Origin: Betaproteobacteria bacterium
Lineage (GTDB): Bacteria; Pseudomonadota; Gammaproteobacteria; Burkholderiales; SG8-41
Length of the DNA: 45,789 nt
NCBI GenBank assembly: GCA_016199485.1
Contig: JACQGO010000112.1
Coordinates: 1-45,789 of the forward strand
Direction: 5' to 3'
The stretch's first letter is position 1. The number at the start of each line of letters is the position of its first letter. The position numbers and the translations under genes were made by a program. Under the pieces are notes generated by a model that did no database searches, was not told the DNA's origin, and saw only the letters and a program-made list of their open reading frames with translations. Shown here piece after piece: positions 1-45,789 of this stretch.

Positions 1-141
1 GAGTAGACGGGGATGCCGGCGGCGCGGCAGGCGCGCGCCATCGCGTTCCCGACCGCCGATTGCGAGGCGCCGGGAAAGACAAGCCGGTTGGGCAGCCGGT
101 CCTCCGGCGGGCAGGTGTCCTCCAGCAAGCGCATCAGCCAC
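1..141. repeat. Terminal overlap, identical to 45649..45789
   Basis: Base-by-base comparison of the two ends shows 141/141 identity. Confidence 0.97.
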
Positions 142-890
142 TCGGGTAGCTGCACCCACCGCGCCCGCCCCGTTTTCGTCTCTCGCGCCCGCAGCCGGAA
201 GCGGCAGCCGGCCACGTCCACGTCGCCCCAGGCGAGCCCGGCGACCTCGCCGATGCGCATCGCGGTTTGCTCCATCACCACCACCGGCAGCCGCCAGCGG
301 GCGGGTGTCAGTCGTTCCAGCAGCGCCAGCACATGCTCCGCCGGCGGCGGGGATGCTTCCGTCCGTTCGACCTTCGGCAGCCGCACCCTGGGGTCGCGGG
401 CCGGGTTTGGCTCCACCCCGGCGAAGTCGAACAGGACGCGTAGCGTCTCCACGTACTTGGCGACGGAGGCGGGCGCGAGCGGGCGCGGCGGAGCCGTCAA
501 CGCCGCCACCCACTGCTGCACGTCCGTCCACGTGACTGTGGCCGGGTCGCGCGCGCCGCCGAAGAACCCGCACAAACGCTGCAGGTGCATCCGCTGCTTG
601 CGCACGCTCTCCGCCGCCAGGTCCACCCGAGACGCCAGATAGCGCTCCGACCACCCTTGGAGAGACAGCGGCGAAGTGTCAGCAACCTGGAGGGCCAGCT
701 CCGTCCGGGGGTTTCTGCCCTGGGCGAGCCAGCCGGCGATCAGGTTGCGCCGCTCCACCGCCTCTCGTCGGGTGGCGAACATGCCGCCGTGCTCGAGCGG
801 GAAGCCGCGCCCGCCGCGACGGAAACGCACTTGGAAGCGTCGGCTTCCCTTCGCGGTGATCCGAGTACGGATGTGGACGGAGCCGCTCAC
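1..890 (-). CDS. int: Tyrosine integrase, 5' portion (continues at 45648..45474; whole gene 1065 nt, 354 aa)
   Basis: Manual translation from GTG 888-890, which is preceded by GGGGGGATT. N-terminus VSGSVHIRTRITAKGSRRFQVRFRRGG... looks like an arm-binding domain. The SAM-like middle region and the box I Arg in TAMRIGEVAGL are present. The frame is open to position 1 and in phase with the ORF at 45474..45782. Confidence 0.88.
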   Translation of the reverse strand, partial: MSGSVHIRTRITAKGSRRFQVRFRRGGRGFPLEHGGMFATRREAVERRNLIAGWLAQGRNPRTELALQVADTSPLSLQGWSERYLASRVDLAAESVRKQRMHLQRLCGFFGGARDPATVTWTDVQQWVAALTAPPRPLAPASVAKYVETLRVLFDFAGVEPNPARDPRVRLPKVERTEASPPPAEHVLALLERLTPARWRLPVVVMEQTAMRIGEVAGLAWGDVDVAGCRFRLRARETKTGRARWVQLPEWLMRLLEDTCPPEDRLPNRLVFPGASQSAVGNAMARACRAAGIPVY

Positions 891-915
891 AATCCCCCCA
901 GCCGTGACTGCCCAG

Positions 916-1245
916 TCATACCTTTGCAAGCTCCCGTAGCTGCATGAGTCGCCAAGAGAGGGCGAGCCGCATGTCGCCGTGCGCCTCGTTGAACGATCCC
1001 GCCAGATATGCCGCGTTCCCGTGCGGATGTGCAAACTCATCGGCAGCCGCGCGAGACACTTCATGGGTAAGCCAGTCGCTCGCGGCGCTGATCCAGCCTG
1101 CGTAATCTTGCTCGAACGCCGCCAGTTCCGCATCTGAGGAGACGAGACACCTATAGAGCCCCTGTCCCTCCAAAAGAAACCGATCGATCCCACGCTGGAA
1201 GTGCTCAGCGTGGCGTTCTGACGGAAGCAGCTTTAGAAGCCTCAC
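916..1245 (-). CDS. Hypothetical protein immediately upstream of int
   Basis: 109-aa ORF. GAGGG lies 4 nt before the GTG start. G+C is visibly lower than in the flanks. No recognisable motif. Confidence 0.5.
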   Translation of the reverse strand: MRLLKLLPSERHAEHFQRGIDRFLLEGQGLYRCLVSSDAELAAFEQDYAGWISAASDWLTHEVSRAAADEFAHPHGNAAYLAGSFNEAHGDMRLALSWRLMQLRELAKV

Positions 1246-1390
1246 ATCGCCCTCGTCGCCTTCTTACGCCAATACGACCAGGCTAGCCTGAGTGCCCGTC
1301 TGCGTGAGTACGGTGAACCAAGAGTAGGGTCTCGGAAGGGATCATGCCGAAAGTAGGAGTAAAGAAACCAAAGACTCACTCGCTCTCTAC

Positions 1391-1573
1391 TCACGGTGCC
1401 CTCGTCACGTCGTCCAACAGCTGGCGCACGTCCGATCGTCTCACGTACACCTTCCGCAAACCGGGTGGCGTCACCTTCGGCACCTGCCGCATGATCTTCT
1501 CCGCCGCAGCACGGCTGACGCCGAGCTCCCGCATCAGCTTCGCGCAGTCTACAAGCTCGGGCAGCTCAGCCAT
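1391..1573 (-). CDS. xis: Excisionase-type HTH DNA-binding protein
   Basis: 60 aa from ATG 1571-1573, with GAGGAG upstream. MAELPELVDCAKLMRELGVSRAAAEKIMRQ...VYVRRSDV matches the excisionase/MerR-like HTH pattern. The gene lies near int. Confidence 0.7.
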   Translation of the reverse strand: MAELPELVDCAKLMRELGVSRAAAEKIMRQVPKVTPPGLRKVYVRRSDVRQLLDDVTRAP

Positions 1574-1838
1574 CTCCCGACTCCTCGTCAGCGGAGAGAG
1601 CGGCGCGGGCGATCGCCTGAAGATGCGCGGCAGGAGCGTGAGCCTTGGTGATCCGGTCAAGTGCTTCCCGCAACGCCTCCTGTCGCTTGCGGGACTCGGC
1701 GAGGGCAGCCTCGGCGTTCTCAAGGTTCCGCTCTAAGTAGCTCTCACGGTCGCTCATGAACTGCCGGGCCTCATCTCGTTCCCGCCGGGCCTCATCTCGT
1801 TCCCGCTCCACCTGCTCGGCACTCACTGGCACACCCAT
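1566..1838 (-). CDS. Small coiled-coil protein
   Basis: 90-aa charged heptad-like ORF that overlaps the xis start by 8 nt. It contains a 21-bp tandem duplication encoding ERDEARR/ERDEARQ. Confidence 0.45.
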   Translation of the reverse strand: MGVPVSAEQVERERDEARRERDEARQFMSDRESYLERNLENAEAALAESRKRQEALREALDRITKAHAPAAHLQAIARAALSADEESGDG

Positions 1839-1866
1839 TCCCCACGGCGGCTGCCATGCTGGCTGG

Positions 1867-2487
1867 TTAGGGGCGGCGAAGCGAGAGTGGCCCGAGACGC
1901 AGACCGACCAGCCGACCCTCTTGGAACTCGTCCCGCATGTGCTGAGCCTGAGAGCTGTACAGCAGCAGGTTCTCGATCCGATCGTCGGTCGAGTCGCCGT
2001 TCACATGATGGACAACCTCGCCGAACTCGAGTGGCCGATGCAAGTGCGCCTCCATTACAGCGCGGGCATACAACACCTTGCGACCGTTCACGTCCTCGAA
2101 GTACCAGCGCGGCTTTGGGCTGGAATTGAGCTTCAGCAGCTTGCGGCGATGGGCCTGCGGATTGTGCCCTTGTCGCCATCGGGAATGCGGCTTGCTCACG
2201 AGCCTTCCGCATCCGCAGGCGCACTCTGGTCGTTCGAGTCGCATAGCAGCCCATTGACAGATCCGAGAGCAGTACCGGGCTCGCGCCCATTGATTCTTCG
2301 TGTAGCGCGGGTTCTTCTCGAACGAACCGCCGCAGTGTGAGCAGAGCTTCGTCGGCCTCGCGCGAGACCGGTGCTGGACGATGGCTGAGCATCGGCGCGA
2401 GCAAGTTCGTTGGGCTTCCCATTGCCCGTCTGTGCGCCGAAGAGGGCGCTTGAAGAGACGCCCGCAGCCCTCGCACACCTTGCTCAT
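1867..2487 (-). CDS. HNH endonuclease with N-terminal Cys-pair repeats
   Basis: EVVHHVNGDSTDDRIENL is an HNH core. Several CxxC pairs occur in the N-terminal half. Confidence 0.85.
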   Translation of the reverse strand: MSKVCEGCGRLFKRPLRRTDGQWEAQRTCSRRCSAIVQHRSRARPTKLCSHCGGSFEKNPRYTKNQWARARYCSRICQWAAMRLERPECACGCGRLVSKPHSRWRQGHNPQAHRRKLLKLNSSPKPRWYFEDVNGRKVLYARAVMEAHLHRPLEFGEVVHHVNGDSTDDRIENLLLYSSQAQHMRDEFQEGRLVGLRLGPLSLRRP

Positions 2488-2509
2488 GACGTGATACTAG
2501 CACGCCCAC

Positions 2510-3031
2510 TTACGCGCACGACCAGTCGTTTTTCCTGCCCCTTTGCCACATCCAGCCGGTAGCCAGACTCGACGCGACCGGGTCGAAGGGGCTGAAGCGG
2601 GCGAACGGCGTCCCCGCCCACGTCGCTGGGGCGAACTGGAACGGCCCCACATTTCCCCCGGGGGAGCGCGCCCACAAGTAGAAGCGGGACTCGCACCAGG
2701 CGACGCGGCGGAGCGCGGCAGCCGACTGCCGGTACACCACCGAGGCGAGCAGGATCCCGTAGCGCAGGCTGGGATCGACGCGGTGGTGAAGATCGCGCCG
2801 CTGCTTGCGGACCTGGAGCTGCAGCCGCCGCACTCGCCGCCGTTCGAGCCTGAGCGCGGCGCGGGCTCGCTCGAGCTCGGCGCCGCGCCGGTCGGCCTCG
2901 CCCGCCCAGTCGTAGATGTCGCGGTTGAGGAATGTGGCGGGCGGGTCGGCGCCGAGGCTGGGGCGGGCGAGCACGAGCAGGGTGAGCGCACACAGGCCAG
3001 CGGCGAGGTAGCGAGGCAGCCGCTCGCTCAC
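2510..3031 (-). CDS. Secreted transglycosylase-like (Rpf/SLT-like) protein
   Basis: N-terminal signal-like segment LAAGLCALTLLVLARPSLGA. AWCESRF...GGNVGPFQFAPATW resembles the CES...G(L/P)xQF...tW transglycosylase-like motif. Confidence 0.6.
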   Translation of the reverse strand: MSERLPRYLAAGLCALTLLVLARPSLGADPPATFLNRDIYDWAGEADRRGAELERARAALRLERRRVRRLQLQVRKQRRDLHHRVDPSLRYGILLASVVYRQSAAALRRVAWCESRFYLWARSPGGNVGPFQFAPATWAGTPFARFSPFDPVASSLATGWMWQRGRKNDWSCA

Positions 3032-3747
3032 GCCGCCTCCAGCTCTACTAGTAGGTAGCGCATGAGCATCTCCGTCTGCCAGGCGCGCTCGACGTCCCAG
3101 GCGGCGGCCGAGGCGGCGTCCCTGGCGTCGTCCCAGGCGGCGGCCCTGGCGGCGGCCCAGGCGGCGTCCCCGGCGGCGGCCCAGGCGGCGTCCCAGGCGG
3201 CGGCCCTGGCGGCGGCCCTGGCGGCGGCCCAGGCGGCGTCCCAGGCGGCGTCCCTGGCGTCGTCCCAGGCGGCGGCCCTGGCGGCGGCCCTGGCGGCGGC
3301 CCTGGCGGCGACAAGCTCCTCGCCGCCAGCTTTCCCGTTAGCGTAGGCGCGAGCGACCTCGACCGCCCGCCACGAACGCCCGTCCGGTTCCCGTCCCGCC
3401 TTGCGCTCCCGCCGCAACGCCCGCTCCGCACAGTCGCAGGCGAACAGCCGTGCCGTCCGCTCGTCCCACGCCTCCACGCGGGAGAGCAGTCGCGCCCTGC
3501 GCACCACCAGCTTGTCGCCGTCGCCGAGCCGCTCCTTGCCTGCCTGAGCCAGCCAGATCGTCGGCCCCAGCCAGTAAACGAGCTGGTCGGGGCGGCACAC
3601 GTGCAGACCATTCGCGCATGGCTCCAGCCGCCCCTCGACCTTCACCCACTTGCCCGGCTTGCCGTTTTGGGGTAGCGGCCACACTCCTGTGCCGCCGTGG
3701 TAGGGGCGGCCGTCAGCATCGAGCACCTTGAACAGAAGCTCGCTCAC
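3028..3747 (-). CDS. Two-part protein: conserved-looking globular N-domain plus C-terminal AAxx (A/W/D/R) 4-residue repeat region
   Basis: GTG 3745-3747 overlaps the upstream TGA (GTGA), with AAGGAAG upstream. The C-terminal about 70 residues read AARAAARAAAWDDARDAAWDAAWAAARAAARAAAWDAAW... Confidence 0.7.
   Translation of the reverse strand: MSELLFKVLDADGRPYHGGTGVWPLPQNGKPGKWVKVEGRLEPCANGLHVCRPDQLVYWLGPTIWLAQAGKERLGDGDKLVVRRARLLSRVEAWDERTARLFACDCAERALRRERKAGREPDGRSWRAVEVARAYANGKAGGEELVAARAAARAAARAAAWDDARDAAWDAAWAAARAAARAAAWDAAWAAAGDAAWAAARAAAWDDARDAASAAAWDVERAWQTEMLMRYLLVELEAA
3094..3310. repeat. About 12-nt-period tandem repeat (GGCGGCGGCCCNGG-like) encoding the AAxx repeats
   Basis: Direct reading shows about 18 imperfect 12-nt units. 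Confidence 0.85.
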
Positions 3748-22239: not shown

Positions 22240-23355
22240 ATGGCCAGGCAGGCCGACGACCGGATCTGGCTGGCCGACCTGAACGCCGTCCTCGACTGGC
22301 CGACGGTGTTCAAGGCCAGCCAGGCCCGCTACGCCCCAAGGCCGCTGGCCACGTTCTGGGTGCAGGCCACCCCCGGCGTCAACTACTACCGGGCCGAGCT
22401 GCCCGCCCGCCACCTGCCCGGCAAGACCGTCTGGTTCGACTCCGTCGACATCCAGCCGGACGGCTACGGCGGCCACCGCTTCCCCCGCCAGGAAGGGCAG
22501 GCGGCCGTGTGGATGTTCCCCGGCAACACCACCCGCGCCCTGGCGATGGCGGAGATGAAAACCCAGCACGACCTGCGCGTCCTGGTCGAGGTCGACGACA
22601 ACTACACCCGCCAGCCTGCGATGCCGCAACTGTCTGCCTGGCTGACCACCCGCGACCGCACAGGCCAAGACCGGCACTCCTACGATGTGCACCGCAGGAT
22701 CGTGCGCTCGATCTGCGACGGCGTGATCGTGTCCACTCCCAGGCTAGCCCAGGTGTACGAGAGCCTGACCGAACAGGTGTACGTGTGCCGAAACTCGGTC
22801 GACCCGGACGACTGGGACCCGGAGCCGCCGCACGCCCCCGACGGGGTGCTCAGGATCGGCTGGGCCGGCTCCGCCTCCCACGGCTACGACGTCGCCGACA
22901 TCCGCCCCGCGCTCGACTGGGTGGCCCGCCAAAAAGACGTGGAGGTCGTCGTTCTCGGCGAGCTCGTCCCCTTTGGCGTGCCCGTACGGCACATACCCTG
23001 GACGGACTCGCTGGCGGACTACCGCCGCAACGTGCGCGAGCTCGACGTGATGTTGTGTCCCCTTCGTCCCTCGGCGTGGGCGGACTGCAAGAGCGACGTG
23101 AAGGCGCTGGAGGCGGCGATGGGCGGCGCCTGCTCTGTCGTCTCCAAGACGGAGCCCTATCGTCCGTGGTGGGACGGGGAGGCGCCCGGGTATGTGGCCG
23201 AGACGTCCAAAGACTTGATTCGAGTCGTTCAGCATCTCGTCAGGCACCGGAACGAGACGGCCGAGACGGCCAGGCTCGCCCGCGAATACGCCGTCAGCAG
23301 CCGCAACATCCGTCGTGAAATCAAAGCCTGGCAGGAGGCCATAGATGGCTGCTAA
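22240..23355 (+). CDS. GT-B-type (GT1/GT4-like) glycosyltransferase
   Basis: The C-terminal half, RIGWAGSASHG...VVVLGE...ELDVMLCPL...KALEAAMGGACSVVS, resembles the GT1/GT4 nucleotide-sugar-binding half. Confidence 0.6.
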   Translation: MARQADDRIWLADLNAVLDWPTVFKASQARYAPRPLATFWVQATPGVNYYRAELPARHLPGKTVWFDSVDIQPDGYGGHRFPRQEGQAAVWMFPGNTTRALAMAEMKTQHDLRVLVEVDDNYTRQPAMPQLSAWLTTRDRTGQDRHSYDVHRRIVRSICDGVIVSTPRLAQVYESLTEQVYVCRNSVDPDDWDPEPPHAPDGVLRIGWAGSASHGYDVADIRPALDWVARQKDVEVVVLGELVPFGVPVRHIPWTDSLADYRRNVRELDVMLCPLRPSAWADCKSDVKALEAAMGGACSVVSKTEPYRPWWDGEAPGYVAETSKDLIRVVQHLVRHRNETAETARLAREYAVSSRNIRREIKAWQEAIDGC

Positions 23356-42816: not shown

Positions 42817-43001
42817 CGTTCGCCAGCACCGCCGCCCGCTTTTGCGCTCTGTACGAGGAGCAGTTCGCCAACCCGTCGGGGCTGAACCGGCGGGCGGCCG
42901 GGGATGCTCTGGCGCAGATGCTTGTGCTGGGCTGGATACGGCCGCCTAGGCCGTAGCCCAGCTGCTATACACTTGGGGTAGTAGGCTGGCTGCTCTACCG
43001 A

Positions 43002-43037
43002 GGCCCGCCTCTTCTTTCGGGAAGGGGCGGGCCTTTT
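43002..43037 (+). terminator. Strong rho-independent terminator ending the rightward late arm
   Basis: 13-bp stem GGCCCGCCTCTTC / GAAGGGGCGGGCC (one G-U pair), loop TTTCGG, then TTTT. Confidence 0.8.
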
Positions 43038-43116
43038 CGCATGTAGTCGGGGGGCATAGGGCATCACCTCCTTAGTCTGGCGGGAGTTTGGCGGTACGCT
43101 GCAACGGCTGAGATAC

Positions 43117-43489
43117 GTCGCTTCGGCTCGGGCGGGCCTGAACCGACTCGGGTAGTCGCTTCGGGGCGGGCGGGCTAGGCTTGGACGGTCGCTTCGGCCT
43201 GGCCTGGTCGGGATTGTCGCTGTGGCTGGACTCGGCGTGGCCTGGCCTGTCGCTTCGGCTGGGTGCGGCGTGGGGAGGGCAGGCACGTCGCTTCGGCGTG
43301 GGGAGGCTTGGGCCGTCGCTTCGGCGCGGATCGAAGTGGAGTGGAGCGTCGCTTCGGCGGGGCTAGGCTCGGCACGGTCAGTCGCTTCGGAGCGGGCCGG
43401 TTGGGTTGGGCGAGGCTGGTCGCTTCGGCGTGGTACGGCGTGGATTGTCGCTTCGGCTTGGCCCGATGAGGTCCGGCAAGTCGCGTCGG
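43117..43489 (+). repeat. Array of 12 unidirectional copies of GTCGCTTCGG (two degenerate) with start-to-start spacing of only 28, 33 or 38 bp
   Basis: Copies start at 43117, 43155, 43188, 43216, 43249, 43287, 43315, 43348, 43381, 43419, 43447 and 43480. The intervening segments are G-rich and not conserved. Confidence 0.95.
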
Positions 43490-43514
43490 CGAGGCGAGGC
43501 CCGGTTCGGGGTGT

Positions 43515-44192
43515 TTACTCCTCGATTCGCCTCATCTCCTTCAGGCGGAACACGCCCTCTCCTTGCGACCGGTCTGAGCCGAGGCCGAGCCAGCCGCCGA
43601 ACTCCAGCATCTTACGCAGCTCTTCCTCGCCGACGATCCCGTCGCCGACACCGCCGGAGAGCAGCCTGATCTGGAACCTGAGCTGCGCCTGGTTCACGTA
43701 CTCAAACCGCTTGATCGCTGTTCGCGGCCCCTGCCGTGTTACGACCGAGATCGGACGTTCGTCCGTTCCGTCCGGCTCCATCCGGTCGAGCCTCAGCTTC
43801 TGCCCGCCGTCCACAGCCCGAACGTGGAGGTCGTGCTGCACCACCTGGCGTGCGCCCCGCTTCTGCTTCAACAGGCCGCACCGCTGCGCCGCCTCGCGCA
43901 GCATCGCCTTCACCTGTCGCGCCTCGACGTAAAGGCCGTCGGCGTCACGCCGGAAGCCGGTCGTCATCCCGGCAACCTCAGCGTCCTCGGTCAGAACGGG
44001 CATGTCGCCTTCCTCGGCCAGCGTCTCGGCAAGATCAGAGGCGTCCGCTCCCTCGACGCCTTGCCCGCGAGCCCACGACTCGTAGGCGTTCGCCCGCTCC
44101 TCCGGCTCAGCGGTTTCTGCTACGAGCGGGATACCGCCGACCAGGCGATCGTCGAACTCGAGCTCCACGTCATAGATGCTCCAACCAATCAT
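43515..44192 (-). CDS. Hypothetical protein with RAMP-like C-terminal glycine-rich loop (an in-frame upstream extension to 44411 is possible)
   Basis: AAGGAGG lies 7 nt before ATG 44190-44192. 225 aa. The end reads EELRKMLEFGGWLGLGSDRSQGEGVFRL. The internal block GLYVEARQVKAMLREAA is also present. Confidence 0.6.
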   Translation of the reverse strand: MIGWSIYDVELEFDDRLVGGIPLVAETAEPEERANAYESWARGQGVEGADASDLAETLAEEGDMPVLTEDAEVAGMTTGFRRDADGLYVEARQVKAMLREAAQRCGLLKQKRGARQVVQHDLHVRAVDGGQKLRLDRMEPDGTDERPISVVTRQGPRTAIKRFEYVNQAQLRFQIRLLSGGVGDGIVGEEELRKMLEFGGWLGLGSDRSQGEGVFRLKEMRRIEE

Positions 44193-44403
44193 TTCTTCGC
44201 CTCCTTCTATTCGATGGCTTCGCGCAGGATCGACTTCCCGCTCGTTCAGTTTCCGCTGTGCTTCCATCTGCTCAAAACGATCAAGGCGACAACGAGGGTC
44301 AGTCTGCGCGCAGATGGGTCCTGGCCCCGGATAGCCAAGCTGGGGTAGGCCACAATACCCGCATGTCCTCCACCACGGCCAAGCCAGCTTGGGTGCTGTG
44401 CGA

Positions 44404-44606
44404 GGCATCACCGGGGCCTCACACCTGCACCGCTCTACAGCGTCTACAGCATTCTCGGCTGGCGTGGTTGAGCCGATGAGCGGCTTGGCGGGGGTGCGGC
44501 TGGTTCGAGCCCAGTACCGCCCATATCCACCCTGGACCGCATGGTTGAACGAAAAGCCTGCACGCCGTCGGTGCTCTGGGCATCACGGGGGCCTCACGTC
44601 TACAAC
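44404..44606. promoter_or_regulatory. Candidate attP: tRNA 3'-end-like core flanked by 19-bp direct repeats
   Basis: Positions 44499-44523 read GCTGG-TTCGAGC-CCAGT-ACCGCCC-A (T-arm, acceptor 3' strand, discriminator) with no matching 5' half. GGCATCAC(C/G)GGGGCCTCAC occurs at 44404-22 and 44579-97. Confidence 0.45.
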
Positions 44607-44836
44607 TCCTCCCATGACGCTTCCACGGTAGAGAAAACCACGTTACTGCCCTTCGGGAAAACAAGGTTAGGTACTCCTACCGGCGAAGCCTCGGGGATAA
44701 CCTCAACGGTGTAAACACGCTCCGTACATGTGCCCGTTCCAGAAGGTACCTCCGAGATGAGCAAGATGCGGCCAATACGCCAGCCCGGTTCGCTGAACTC
44801 TTGTCCTTCACGTAGTCGAACGATGCGGGCGCTCAT
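44600..44836 (-). CDS. Hypothetical protein (78 aa), low-GC cassette
   Basis: ATGA overlap with the upstream gene. No motif. Confidence 0.45.
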   Translation of the reverse strand: MSARIVRLREGQEFSEPGWRIGRILLISEVPSGTGTCTERVYTVEVIPEASPVGVPNLVFPKGSNVVFSTVEASWEEL

Positions 44837-45477: not shown

Positions 45478-45789
45478 CGCAGCACCTCCGCGTACTGACT
45501 CGCCCCGACTTCTTTATCCGGAATCAGGTGTGAGTACACGTCCAGCGGCATCGAGACTTTCGCCCAGCCGCCCCGCTCGGCCAGCTCCCGGCCCGACAAT
45601 CCTTGCCCGTGCCACAGGCTCGCCCGCCGATGGCGCAGGTCATGGGGCGAGTAGACGGGGATGCCGGCGGCGCGGCAGGCGCGCGCCATCGCGTTCCCGA
45701 CCGCCGATTGCGAGGCGCCGGGAAAGACAAGCCGGTTGGGCAGCCGGTCCTCCGGCGGGCAGGTGTCCTCCAGCAAGCGCATCAGCCAC
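45474..45789 (-). CDS. int: Tyrosine integrase, 3' portion (catalytic C-terminus)
   Basis: SPHDLRHRRASL (HxxR box II) and LDVYSH (catalytic Tyr). Positions 45649..45789 duplicate 1..141. Confidence 0.9.
   Translation of the reverse strand, partial: WLMRLLEDTCPPEDRLPNRLVFPGASQSAVGNAMARACRAAGIPVYSPHDLRHRRASLWHGQGLSGRELAERGGWAKVSMPLDVYSHLIPDKEVGASQYAEVLR
45649..45789. repeat. Terminal overlap, identical to 1..141
   Basis: Base-by-base comparison of the two ends shows 141/141 identity. Confidence 0.97.

What the first reader, a model, noticed from the sequence alone, without database searches (positions are those of the whole stretch)
43117..43489. Twelve-copy unidirectional GTCGCTTCGG array with spacing restricted to 28/33/38 bp, in a ~700-bp non-coding gap
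Seen directly:
- Ten exact copies of GTCGCTTCGG and two one- or two-mismatch copies (GTCGCTGTGG, GTCGCGTCGG), all in the same orientation.
- Start-to-start distances are 38, 33, 28, 33, 38, 28, 33, 33, 38, 28, 33. Only three values occur, each differing by 5 bp.
- The first two triplets of copies each sum to exactly 99 bp, which hints at a higher-order unit.
- The intervening 18-28-nt segments are not conserved, but all are G-rich on the plus strand and contain many GGG/GGGG runs.
- No frame gives a credible protein, and 28 and 38 are not multiples of 3.
- The array starts 25 nt after the stop of the 43515..44192 gene with no terminator between them. It ends about 80 nt from the late-operon terminator.

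What it does not fit:
- It is not a CRISPR array. The repeat is only 10 bp and the spacers are low-complexity.
- It is not a tandem satellite, because the spacers differ.
- The stems around the internal c-UUCG-g are not conserved, so a DNA-binding-site array is more likely than RNA hairpins. Candidates are iteron, centromere or decoy sites for a phage protein.

I cannot match this arrangement to any described phage element.
Basis: partly seen in the sequence, partly recalled or inferred. Interest (0 to 1): 0.8.

Follow-up and report, generated by a model that had tools for sequence, protein, structure and literature searches.

The report
Phage VIPR guide-RNA repeat array
The repeat array is most likely the guide-RNA array of a phage VIPR system, a CRISPR relative first described in 2026, sitting beside its Cas7-like protein gene; in this branch of the family the repeats lie on the opposite strand, relative to the gene, from the published examples.

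Summary
In detail: there are 10 exact GTCGCTTCGG copies (0.39 expected) and 2 variants, all on the + strand, spaced 28/33/38 bp.

The whole tract 43117-43514 is a run of 5-nt NNNGG repeats, with GTCGC plus 3 extra bases at each unit boundary. That gives unit lengths of 5n+3.

The adjacent minus-strand gene (43515-44192) folds as a single-domain Cas7-like RAMP. At profile level it is homologous to SUSP1 Vipr (E=2e-8).

About 80 related loci carry the same kind of array directly next to the same gene.

This matches VIPR systems (bioRxiv 2026, Doudna lab). In those, Vipr protomers coat pentanucleotide-repeat vrRNAs and read double-stranded DNA through the variable bases, silencing competing phages.

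It is therefore not an iteron, centromere or decoy DNA array.

This clade differs from the characterised type II in several ways:
- Units are short (23-48 nt).
- There is no structured tail.
- No accessory gene is conserved.
- The C-rich strand, not the G-rich strand, is always the gene-sense strand. One contig carries both types on one strand.

Which strand is the guide is unresolved; I lean towards the sense, C-rich RNA (about 0.6).

No expression data were available and no targets were found.

The parts
43117..43514 (.). Pentanucleotide-repeat (vrRNA-type) array of 12 units. On the + strand each unit reads GTCGC-TTCGG-(NNNGG)3-5-NNN. On the - strand, the sense of the RAMP gene, it reads NNN-(CCNNN)k-CCGAA-GCGAC. 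Units start at 43117, 43155, 43188, 43216, 43249, 43287, 43315, 43348, 43381, 43419, 43447 and 43480. The strand that is transcribed as guide is unresolved.
   Evidence: There are 10 exact and 2 variant punctuation motifs, G at pentamer position 4 in 49/49 variable pentamers, and a period-5 z-score of 19. The same grammar is seen next to homologous genes.
43515..44192 (-). vipr-like gene of 225 aa encoding a single-RRM RAMP. Features: a helical insertion at residues 30-60, a long beta-hairpin 'thumb' at 142-167 (TRQGPRT at its tip), and a glycine-rich loop GLGSDRSQGEG at 203-213.
   Evidence: The AF2 model has pLDDT 92.8. Foldseek against the PDB returns Cas7-family chains: Cmr4 6s6b_I at 2e-8, type VII Cas7, Csm3 and Cas7-11. 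PADLOC gives Cas6_IIIa at 2.9e-4 and Pfam gives CRISPR_Cas6 at 0.058. hhalign against the SUSP1 Vipr family gives Prob 95.3% and E=2.2e-8. The family has 1,549 representatives at 50% identity.
44200..44204 (-). Shine-Dalgarno GGAGG, 7 nt upstream of the ATG at 44192. It fixes the start of the RAMP gene.
   Evidence: Read from the sequence. Homologues start at the equivalent residue.
43002..43039 (+). 14-bp GC-rich hairpin followed by UUUUCG. It terminates the convergent + strand late operon and also bounds the far (sense-3') end of the vipr-array module.
   Evidence: -39.7 kcal/mol for 42990-43060, z = -4.3.

Best explanation
The tract is the guide-RNA array of a VIPR (Viral Interference Programmable Repeat) system, and the adjacent gene 43515..44192 encodes its Vipr protein, a minimal Cas7-like RAMP.

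Shown here:
- A strictly 5-nt-phased repeat with an invariant dinucleotide and three variable bases. It is cut into 12 short units by a constant motif plus a 3-nt phase shift.
- A RAMP-fold protein that is homologous at profile level to the structurally solved SUSP1 Vipr.
- The same gene-plus-array pair in about 80 other phage or metagenome loci, always with the same relative strand.

Inferred from the two VIPR preprints, which characterised type II systems:
- The array is transcribed.
- Vipr protomers polymerise along the RNA, one protomer per pentamer. They bury the conserved bases and expose the variable bases.
- The filament pairs those bases discontinuously with double-stranded DNA and blocks transcription there.
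- The likely targets are genes of competing phages, satellites or prophages.
- In this temperate phage the module sits between the late-operon terminator and the integrase region.

My inference on polarity (about 0.6): in this clade the guide is the C-rich RNA co-transcribed with vipr from the minus strand. Each unit would be 5'-(NNNCC)k-NNN-GCGAC-3', with GCGAC as a minimal 3' cap or processing mark. That mirrors the published 5'-(YNNGG)n-tail-3' with CC in place of GG.

Each unit has 4-6 pentamers, so it would specify only about 8-18 bases. The 12 units probably act as a battery of short guides.

The confidence given (0.85) is for the identity claim, a VIPR-type RAMP plus its guide array. 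The polarity sub-claim is rated separately, at about 0.6.
For: Anatomy.

Protein:
- AF2 model, pLDDT 92.8.
- Foldseek against the PDB: top 50 hits are all Cas7-family RAMPs at probability 1.00.
- Foldseek against BFVD: A0A8S5R426, annotated as a Cas system-associated RAMP superfamily protein, at 4.9e-12.
- hhalign of 205 family members against 120 SUSP1-Vipr relatives: Prob 95.3%, E=2.2e-8 over 131 columns including the G-loop.
- The SUSP1 protein used in that comparison is PDB 36pp, 'SUSP1 Vipr protein'.

Linkage of gene and array:
- A period-5 tract abuts the gene in 27 of 36 loci, in 4 of 4 closer relatives, and in 50 of 80 metagenome loci, many of the rest having almost no flank.
- Variable bases differ between loci while the phase and the GTCG[C/A] punctuation persist.

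Literature: VIPR is defined as a phage-borne RAMP plus YNNGG or NNNGG pentanucleotide-repeat RNAs.

Polarity towards the sense, C-rich RNA:
- CC lies on the gene-sense strand in every locus with an array, whether upstream or downstream.
- Upstream arrays run to within about 10-20 nt of the vipr Shine-Dalgarno sequence in L013, L014, L019, L023, L039 and L002.
- In L041 the last unit lies 5 nt from the next gene's Shine-Dalgarno sequence.
- Contig L105 carries a SUSP1-type Vipr with GG arrays and a window-type Vipr with CC arrays on one and the same strand.
- In SUSP1 and a Rhodococcus type II locus the sense strand is the verified or terminator-marked RNA strand.
- The guanine-contacting G-loop residues D177 and W178 of SUSP1 align to A/S206 and D207 here.
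Against: - No expression, processing or binding data exist for this locus or this clade.
- All published VIPR motifs are G-based (GGY/NN, NNNGG, YNNNG, NNNNG). In this window the base after GG is a pyrimidine in 72% of pentamers. Both points would fit the + strand as the guide.
- Similarity to characterised Vipr appears only profile-to-profile. The shallow alignment gave E=0.0065, and a profile search of the PDB does not find 36pp.
- There is no structured 3' tail and no conserved accessory gene.
- No target was found. Gapped-code searches against 370 kb of related phage DNA equal the shuffled controls, and two exact IMG/VR scans with an 11-pentamer tract gave 0 hits.
- Units of 4-6 pentamers specify little sequence.
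Confidence: 0.85

Rival explanations
1. Same VIPR system, opposite polarity. The guide would be the G-rich + strand RNA, 5'-GUCGC-UUCGG-(YNNGG)k-NNN-3', transcribed convergently (antisense) to vipr from a promoter in 43040-43116. GUCGC would act as a 5' handle or processing site. This shares the identity claim and differs only in which strand is the guide; the confidence is my share for that sub-question.
For: Every VIPR type described so far uses G-containing pentamers, and guanines are read specifically by Vipr. In the window the position after GG is C or T in 72% of pentamers, which matches YNNGG. A TACGCT -10-like hexamer lies about 15 nt upstream of the first unit (read).
Against: Across the family the position after GG is a pyrimidine in only 51% of pentamers. 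No consensus promoter or terminator was found. In loci where the array is wedged between co-directional genes, or forms the vipr leader, there is no room for an antisense promoter. An antisense guide would also be fully complementary to the obligatory sense transcript. The fixed strand relation for both upstream and downstream arrays has no mechanistic basis under this model. L105 keeps GG and CC arrays on one strand. The + strand RNA would be very strongly self-paired, -208 against -116 kcal/mol.
Confidence: 0.35
2. One reading: an array of double-stranded DNA binding sites (iteron, centromere or decoy) for a phage protein that recognises the 10-mer.
For: A 10-bp motif repeated 12 times in one orientation in a non-coding gap. 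In L001 and L040 the homologous array lies just upstream of the terminase genes.
Against: - The conserved feature is the 5-nt phase of a dinucleotide through the 'spacers', not only the 10-mer.
- Spacings of 5n+3 put successive motifs on changing faces of the helix.
- The only conserved neighbour is a RAMP-fold RNA-binding protein. No Rep, ParB or other neighbour is shared among 38 loci.
- The strand relative to the gene is invariant.
- The position next to terminase is not conserved, and it does not hold in the window.
Confidence: 0.04
3. An RNA-protein module that does not target DNA. Examples would be a viral Cas7 mimic plus repeat RNA that poisons host type I or III CRISPR complexes (RNA anti-CRISPR-like), or a sponge RNA.
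For: The protein's closest solved folds are Csm3, Cmr4 and Cas7. That phages carry CRISPR-repeat mimics is my recollection of the RNA anti-CRISPR literature and was not checked here.
Against: The repeat does not resemble a CRISPR repeat: the constant part is 5-10 nt and there is no hairpin. Homology is to Vipr, whose function as a DNA-targeting repressor was shown experimentally. The hypervariable bases between relatives look like guide information.
Confidence: 0.05
4. Slippage-generated low-complexity junk with no function.
For: The composition is G-rich and repetitive.
Against: There are 10 exact 10-mers against 0.39 expected. The phase z-score is 19. The architecture is conserved next to a conserved gene across proteins only 30-69% identical, in about 80 loci.
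Confidence: 0.01

Closest known systems
VIPR systems, type II archetype (Escherichia phage SUSP1; P. fulva prophage). bioRxiv 10.64898/2026.04.26.720920 and 10.64898/2026.04.26.720927; PDB 36pp
   Same: - Phage-borne small RAMP of about 20-25 kDa with a single RRM, a thumb, a helical insertion and a G-loop.
- Non-coding tandem pentanucleotide repeats flanking the gene, upstream and/or downstream, with a conserved dinucleotide and hypervariable bases.
- Profile-level protein homology.
- A fixed strand relation between the gene and the array.
   Different: - In SUSP1 and in a Rhodococcus relative, GG is on the gene-sense strand. Here CC is.
- Units are 23-48 nt with 3-8 pentamers, against about 100 nt with 9-16 pentamers.
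- The constant part is only GTCGC plus one pentamer (a 3-nt phase shift), instead of a 50-nt structured tail or pseudoknot.
- Arrays hold 12 to more than 35 units, against 1-5.
- The third position is unconstrained across the family (NNN rather than YNN).
- There is no conserved vap gene.
- The guanine-contacting residues D177 and W178 are not conserved.
Class 1 CRISPR-Cas (Cas7 backbone on crRNA; CRISPR arrays)
   Same: RAMP fold, with best structural matches to Cmr4, Csm3 and Cas7. An array of short units with a constant part and a variable part next to the gene. The expected mode of action is one protomer per fixed RNA step.
   Different: The step is 5 nt rather than 6 nt. The constant part is 5-10 nt rather than a 23-47-nt repeat. 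The 'spacers' are themselves periodic. There are no cas1, cas2, cas5, cas6 or effector genes. The locus is phage-encoded.
Type III toxin-antitoxin systems (ToxIN). From my own knowledge, not tested beyond anatomy.
   Same: A tandem RNA-repeat array beside a single small protein gene in mobile elements.
   Different: ToxI repeats are near-identical units of about 36 nt, and ToxN has a Kid/MazF-like endoribonuclease fold. Here the units are variable and the protein is a RAMP.
Iterons and parS centromere arrays
   Same: Unidirectional short repeats in a non-coding gap.
   Different: There is no Rep or ParB partner. The spacing is not in helical phase. The 5-nt dinucleotide phase continues through the spacers. 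The array is tied to one strand relative to a RAMP gene.

Membership tests
VIPR system | Vipr protein: a small single-RRM RAMP with a thumb and a glycine-rich loop, outside a cas operon | tested here: met
   AF2 model, pLDDT 92.8, with secondary structure beta-alpha(2)-beta-alpha-thumb hairpin-beta-alpha-G-loop-beta. Foldseek best hits are Cas7-family RAMPs. No cas genes or other conserved neighbour were found.
VIPR system | Sequence homology to an experimentally characterised Vipr (SUSP1, PDB 36pp) | tested here: met
   hhalign of deep alignments gives Prob 95.3%, E=2.2e-8 over 131 columns. Shallower alignments give only E=0.0065, and a profile search of the PDB finds nothing. The relationship is therefore remote.
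VIPR system | At least 4 tandem pentanucleotide repeats of YNNGG (or NNNGG) type in the non-coding DNA flanking vipr | tested here: met
   61 phased NNNGG pentamers in 12 units. Position 4 is G in 49/49 and position 5 is G in 43/49 variable pentamers; position 1 is a pyrimidine in 73%. The period-5 z-score is 19. The array abuts the stop codon.
VIPR system | Variable bases are hypervariable between relatives while the scaffold is conserved | tested here: met
   Units in L001, L008, L012-14 and L039-41 share the phase and the GTCG[C/A] punctuation but not the variable bases. Within the window the variable positions are 29% identical between units.
VIPR system | The G-rich repeat strand is the same strand as vipr (as in SUSP1, where sRNA-seq and co-expression from one promoter were reported) | tested here: not met
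   SUSP1 and Rhodococcus type II loci have GG on the sense strand. The window and all roughly 80 related loci with arrays have CC on the sense strand. L105 shows both types on one strand. I cannot tell from the text held whether the preprint treats this orientation as defining.
VIPR system | The repeat tract is followed by an invariable, structured 3' tail | tested here: not met
   The only constant element is 10 nt (GTCGCTTCGG, or CCGAAGCGAC on the other strand), with no conserved stem. Neither strand of the array is more structured than its shuffles. The preprint mentions other architectures (staggered, ribozyme-interspersed), whose figures I could not see.
VIPR system | vap accessory gene | tested here: not met
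   No neighbour family is shared among 38 loci. The preprint states that some Vipr genes are stand-alone, so this feature is not strictly defining.
VIPR system | Phage or provirus context | tested here: met
   The window encodes TerL, portal, major capsid protein and integrase. The contig ends overlap by 141 nt. Relatives are IMG/VR contigs and a Microcystis phage.
VIPR system | vrRNA is expressed, co-purifies with Vipr, and directs gapped (1-nt-skip) recognition of double-stranded DNA | not testable with these tools
   Only target prediction could be tried, and it gave no signal above shuffled controls locally and 0 exact hits in IMG/VR. This is inconclusive because the guides are short and the databases searched were small or required exact matches.
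CRISPR array | Direct repeats of 23-47 nt separated by unique spacers of similar length, with cas genes nearby | tested here: not met
   The constant part is 10 nt, the spacers are 5-nt periodic, and no cas operon is present.
Iteron / parS DNA-site array | Repeats bound as duplex DNA by an adjacent Rep, ParB or similar protein, with spacing in helical phase and strand relative to the gene irrelevant | tested here: not met
   The adjacent protein is a RAMP. Spacing is 5n+3. The strand relation is invariant over about 80 loci. Binding itself could not be tested.

The most novel reading that the evidence does not exclude
This large Vipr clade (1,549 clusters at 50% identity) may use a mirror-image repeat code. 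The guides would be the C-rich sense transcripts, short units of (NNNCC)3-8 closed by GCGAC, read by a Vipr whose dinucleotide pocket has switched from GG to CC and which leaves three bases per pentamer free.

That would be a second pentanucleotide guide code, orthogonal to the published one, and it could explain how two VIPR systems share one operon strand in contig L105. It would also mean arrays of tens of mini-guides (12 here, at least 35 in L041, about 3 kb in L022) rather than a few 100-nt guides.
Probability: 0.5. Interest if true: 0.8.

Novelty: new member of a known kind. Interest (0 to 1): 0.6.

Why it matters
VIPR is a newly described RNA-guided DNA-recognition system proposed to pre-date CRISPR. 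This locus places a temperate-phage example in a very large, mostly metagenomic Vipr clade whose array grammar differs from the one that has been characterised.

The differences are short punctuated units, no structured tail, three free bases per pentamer, and the repeat on the opposite strand relative to the gene. If the sense C-rich RNA proves to be the guide, there are at least two orthogonal repeat codes. That bears on how RAMPs read RNA, on co-existence of systems within one phage, and on tool design.

Even under the conservative reading, the locus is a compact single-gene system to test: 678 bp of gene plus a 398-bp array holding 12 guides.

Tried and rejected
- Near-identical DNA in GenBank phages: none. 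Only one isolate phage, Microcystis phage Mae-JY09, encodes a homologue.
- Rfam families and tRNAs: none in the window.
- Consensus promoter and terminator scan around the array: nothing. My own terminator scan of 27 loci found a few sense-direction terminators (L005, L033, and the type II control L043) and two weak antisense ones (L017, L042). This is suggestive, not decisive.
- Cas6 idea from weak Pfam and PADLOC hits: superseded by the fold search, where Cas7-like chains match best.
- Packaging-site idea (array next to terminase in L001 and L040): the position is not conserved.
- Rho-loading tract, G-quadruplex or i-motif: considered but not needed once the RAMP partner and the VIPR grammar were found.
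- 99-bp higher-order unit: not supported.
- Conserved accessory (vap) gene: none.
- Target prediction: six gapped codes were run against 370 kb of window plus related loci, and results equalled shuffled controls. Exact IMG/VR scans of an 11-pentamer tract from L002 under two codes gave 0 hits.
- Supplementary tables of the preprint, which could show whether this clade is one of its seven types, are not held.

Full report
OBSERVATION

The window holds ten exact copies of GTCGCTTCGG and two variants between 43117 and 43489. All are on the + strand, and the spacings are those reported. Exact copies occur nowhere else in the window; shuffles give 0.39.

Every unit is GTCGC, TTCGG, then 3-5 further NNNGG pentamers and 3 extra bases. 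This is why only 28, 33 and 38 occur. G is invariant at pentamer position 4 (49/49) and nearly so at position 5 (43/49).

Its period-5 signal is 19 sd above the rest of the window. The 99-bp sums are not significant, P about 0.12.

THE NEIGHBOUR

The 225-aa product of 43515..44192 has weak Cas6 and Csm4 profile hits at its glycine-rich C-terminus. An AlphaFold model built on 63 homologues is confident, pLDDT 92.8. Its best matches in the PDB are all Cas7-family RAMPs: Cmr4, type VII Cas7, Csm3 and Cas7-11, at probability 1.00. Among viral models it matches a protein annotated as a Cas-associated RAMP.

The family is large and almost entirely metagenomic. There are 70 close relatives and 1,549 cluster representatives at E<=1e-3.

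COMPARATIVE EVIDENCE

I fetched the DNA around homologues from JGI, ENA and Logan contigs, MAGs, IMG/VR and metagenomes. A 5-nt-periodic tract lies directly against the gene in:
- 27 of 36 loci in the first set;
- 4 of 4 closer relatives;
- 50 of 80 metagenome loci.

Units again have length 5n+3, or 5n+4 in some subclades. They are closed by a clade-specific form of the same motif: CCGACGCGAC, CCAATGCGAC, CCCATTCGAC and so on when read in the gene's sense. The variable bases differ between relatives. Arrays range from a few units to 35 units (L041) and about 3 kb (L022). No other gene is conserved next to the pair.

WHAT IT IS

A literature search found two 2026 preprints on VIPR systems. They describe:
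- phage-encoded minimal RAMPs (Vipr);
- vrRNAs built of YNNGG pentanucleotide repeats, with NNNGG and other variants noted;
- one Vipr protomer per repeat, sequestering GGY and presenting NN;
- gapped pairing to double-stranded DNA with a 1-nt skip;
- transcriptional silencing of competing phages, satellites and prophage regulators.

I located the SUSP1 locus in KT454805.2 and confirmed its Vipr against PDB 36pp. With deep alignments, the window's family and the SUSP1 Vipr family align at Prob 95.3%, E=2.2e-8, across helix 1, the thumb and the G-loop. The window itself is a tailed temperate phage with TerL, portal, capsid and integrase genes and overlapping contig ends. I therefore file the locus as a VIPR system with confidence about 0.85.

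HOW IT DIFFERS, AND THE OPEN QUESTION

In SUSP1 and in a Rhodococcus prophage of the same type II family, the G-rich repeat strand is the sense strand of vipr. Each vrRNA there has about 10 or more pentamers and a structured tail of about 50 nt.

In the window's clade the sense strand is always the C-rich one, whether the array is upstream or downstream. Several observations show that a sense, C-rich RNA must be made:
- Upstream arrays run to within 10-20 nt of the vipr ribosome-binding site.
- In L041 the last unit is 5 nt from the next gene's ribosome-binding site.
- Contig L105 carries a SUSP1-type Vipr with GG arrays and a window-type Vipr with CC arrays, all on one strand.

Read in that sense, the unit (NNNCC)k-NNN-GCGAC keeps the published 5'-tract to 3'-constant order. 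Two G-loop residues that read the guanines in SUSP1 (D177, W178) align to A/S206 and D207 here.

Against this, every published motif is G-based. In this window, though not in the family as a whole, the base after GG is a pyrimidine in 72% of pentamers. No promoter or terminator settles the matter. I put the sense, C-rich guide at about 0.6 and the antisense, G-rich guide at about 0.35 to 0.4.

WHAT FAILED

Target prediction gave nothing. Six gapped codes searched against 370 kb of related DNA equalled the shuffled controls. Two exact IMG/VR scans found no match. Units of 4-6 pentamers are too short for the exact-match tools available. The preprint's supplementary tables and figures are not held, so I cannot say whether this clade is one of its seven types or how its strand was drawn.

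VERDICT

The DNA-site interpretation is replaced by a guide-RNA array of a VIPR system. This is a new member of a recently described kind, with a strand and array grammar that may turn out to be a new variant.

Noticed in passing
window 1-141 and 45649-45789: The first 141 nt of the window repeat its last 141 nt. The contig is therefore a circular or terminally redundant assembly of about 45,648 bp, and the integrase gene (45474 onward, - strand) crosses the junction.
   Followed up: partly
window 42995-43074 (- strand): About 40 nt past the last array unit, the minus strand reads TAAGGAGGTGATG, a perfect extended Shine-Dalgarno sequence. Its + strand complement resembles the 16S rRNA 3' end. 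ATG codons lie at 43064 and 43057. The ORF from 43057 is 20 codons long and ends inside the terminator hairpin. L041 has AAAGGAGGTGATCTATG 5 nt after its last unit.
   Followed up: no
L105 (Ga0222697_1004349) 1-3700: One 4.2-kb contig carries two VIPR paralogues on the same strand. The first is a SUSP1-type Vipr (ORF 254-853) with GG arrays at 1-250 and 1340-1460. The second is a window-type Vipr (2583-3275) with CC arrays at 1975-2110 and 3226-3700.
   Followed up: yes
L043 4100-4690 (Rhodococcus globerulus prophage): Five type II vrRNAs lie in tandem. Each constant tail contains GGCGGTTCGATTCCGCC, a tRNA T-arm-like hairpin, which suggests processing by tRNA-maturation enzymes. A sense terminator follows the array.
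   Followed up: no
L022 1900-4000 and 6050-7100: A single RAMP gene is flanked by about 2 kb of array upstream and about 1 kb downstream, dozens of units in all. These are by far the longest arrays seen.
   Followed up: no
window 44205-44832: About 630 nt upstream of the RAMP gene has no convincing ORF. There is only an in-frame extension to a GTG at 44411 that homologues lack. The promoter of the module is presumably here.
   Followed up: no
window 22240-23355: A glycosyltransferase-like gene (PHROG 7162, 3.6e-25) sits among the head and tail structural genes.
   Followed up: no
L033 4574-4616: In this distant relative a strong sense terminator (a 14-bp stem followed by CGTCTTTT) and then TTGACA lie between the RAMP gene and its C-rich array. 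The array may be a separate sense transcription unit there.
   Followed up: partly
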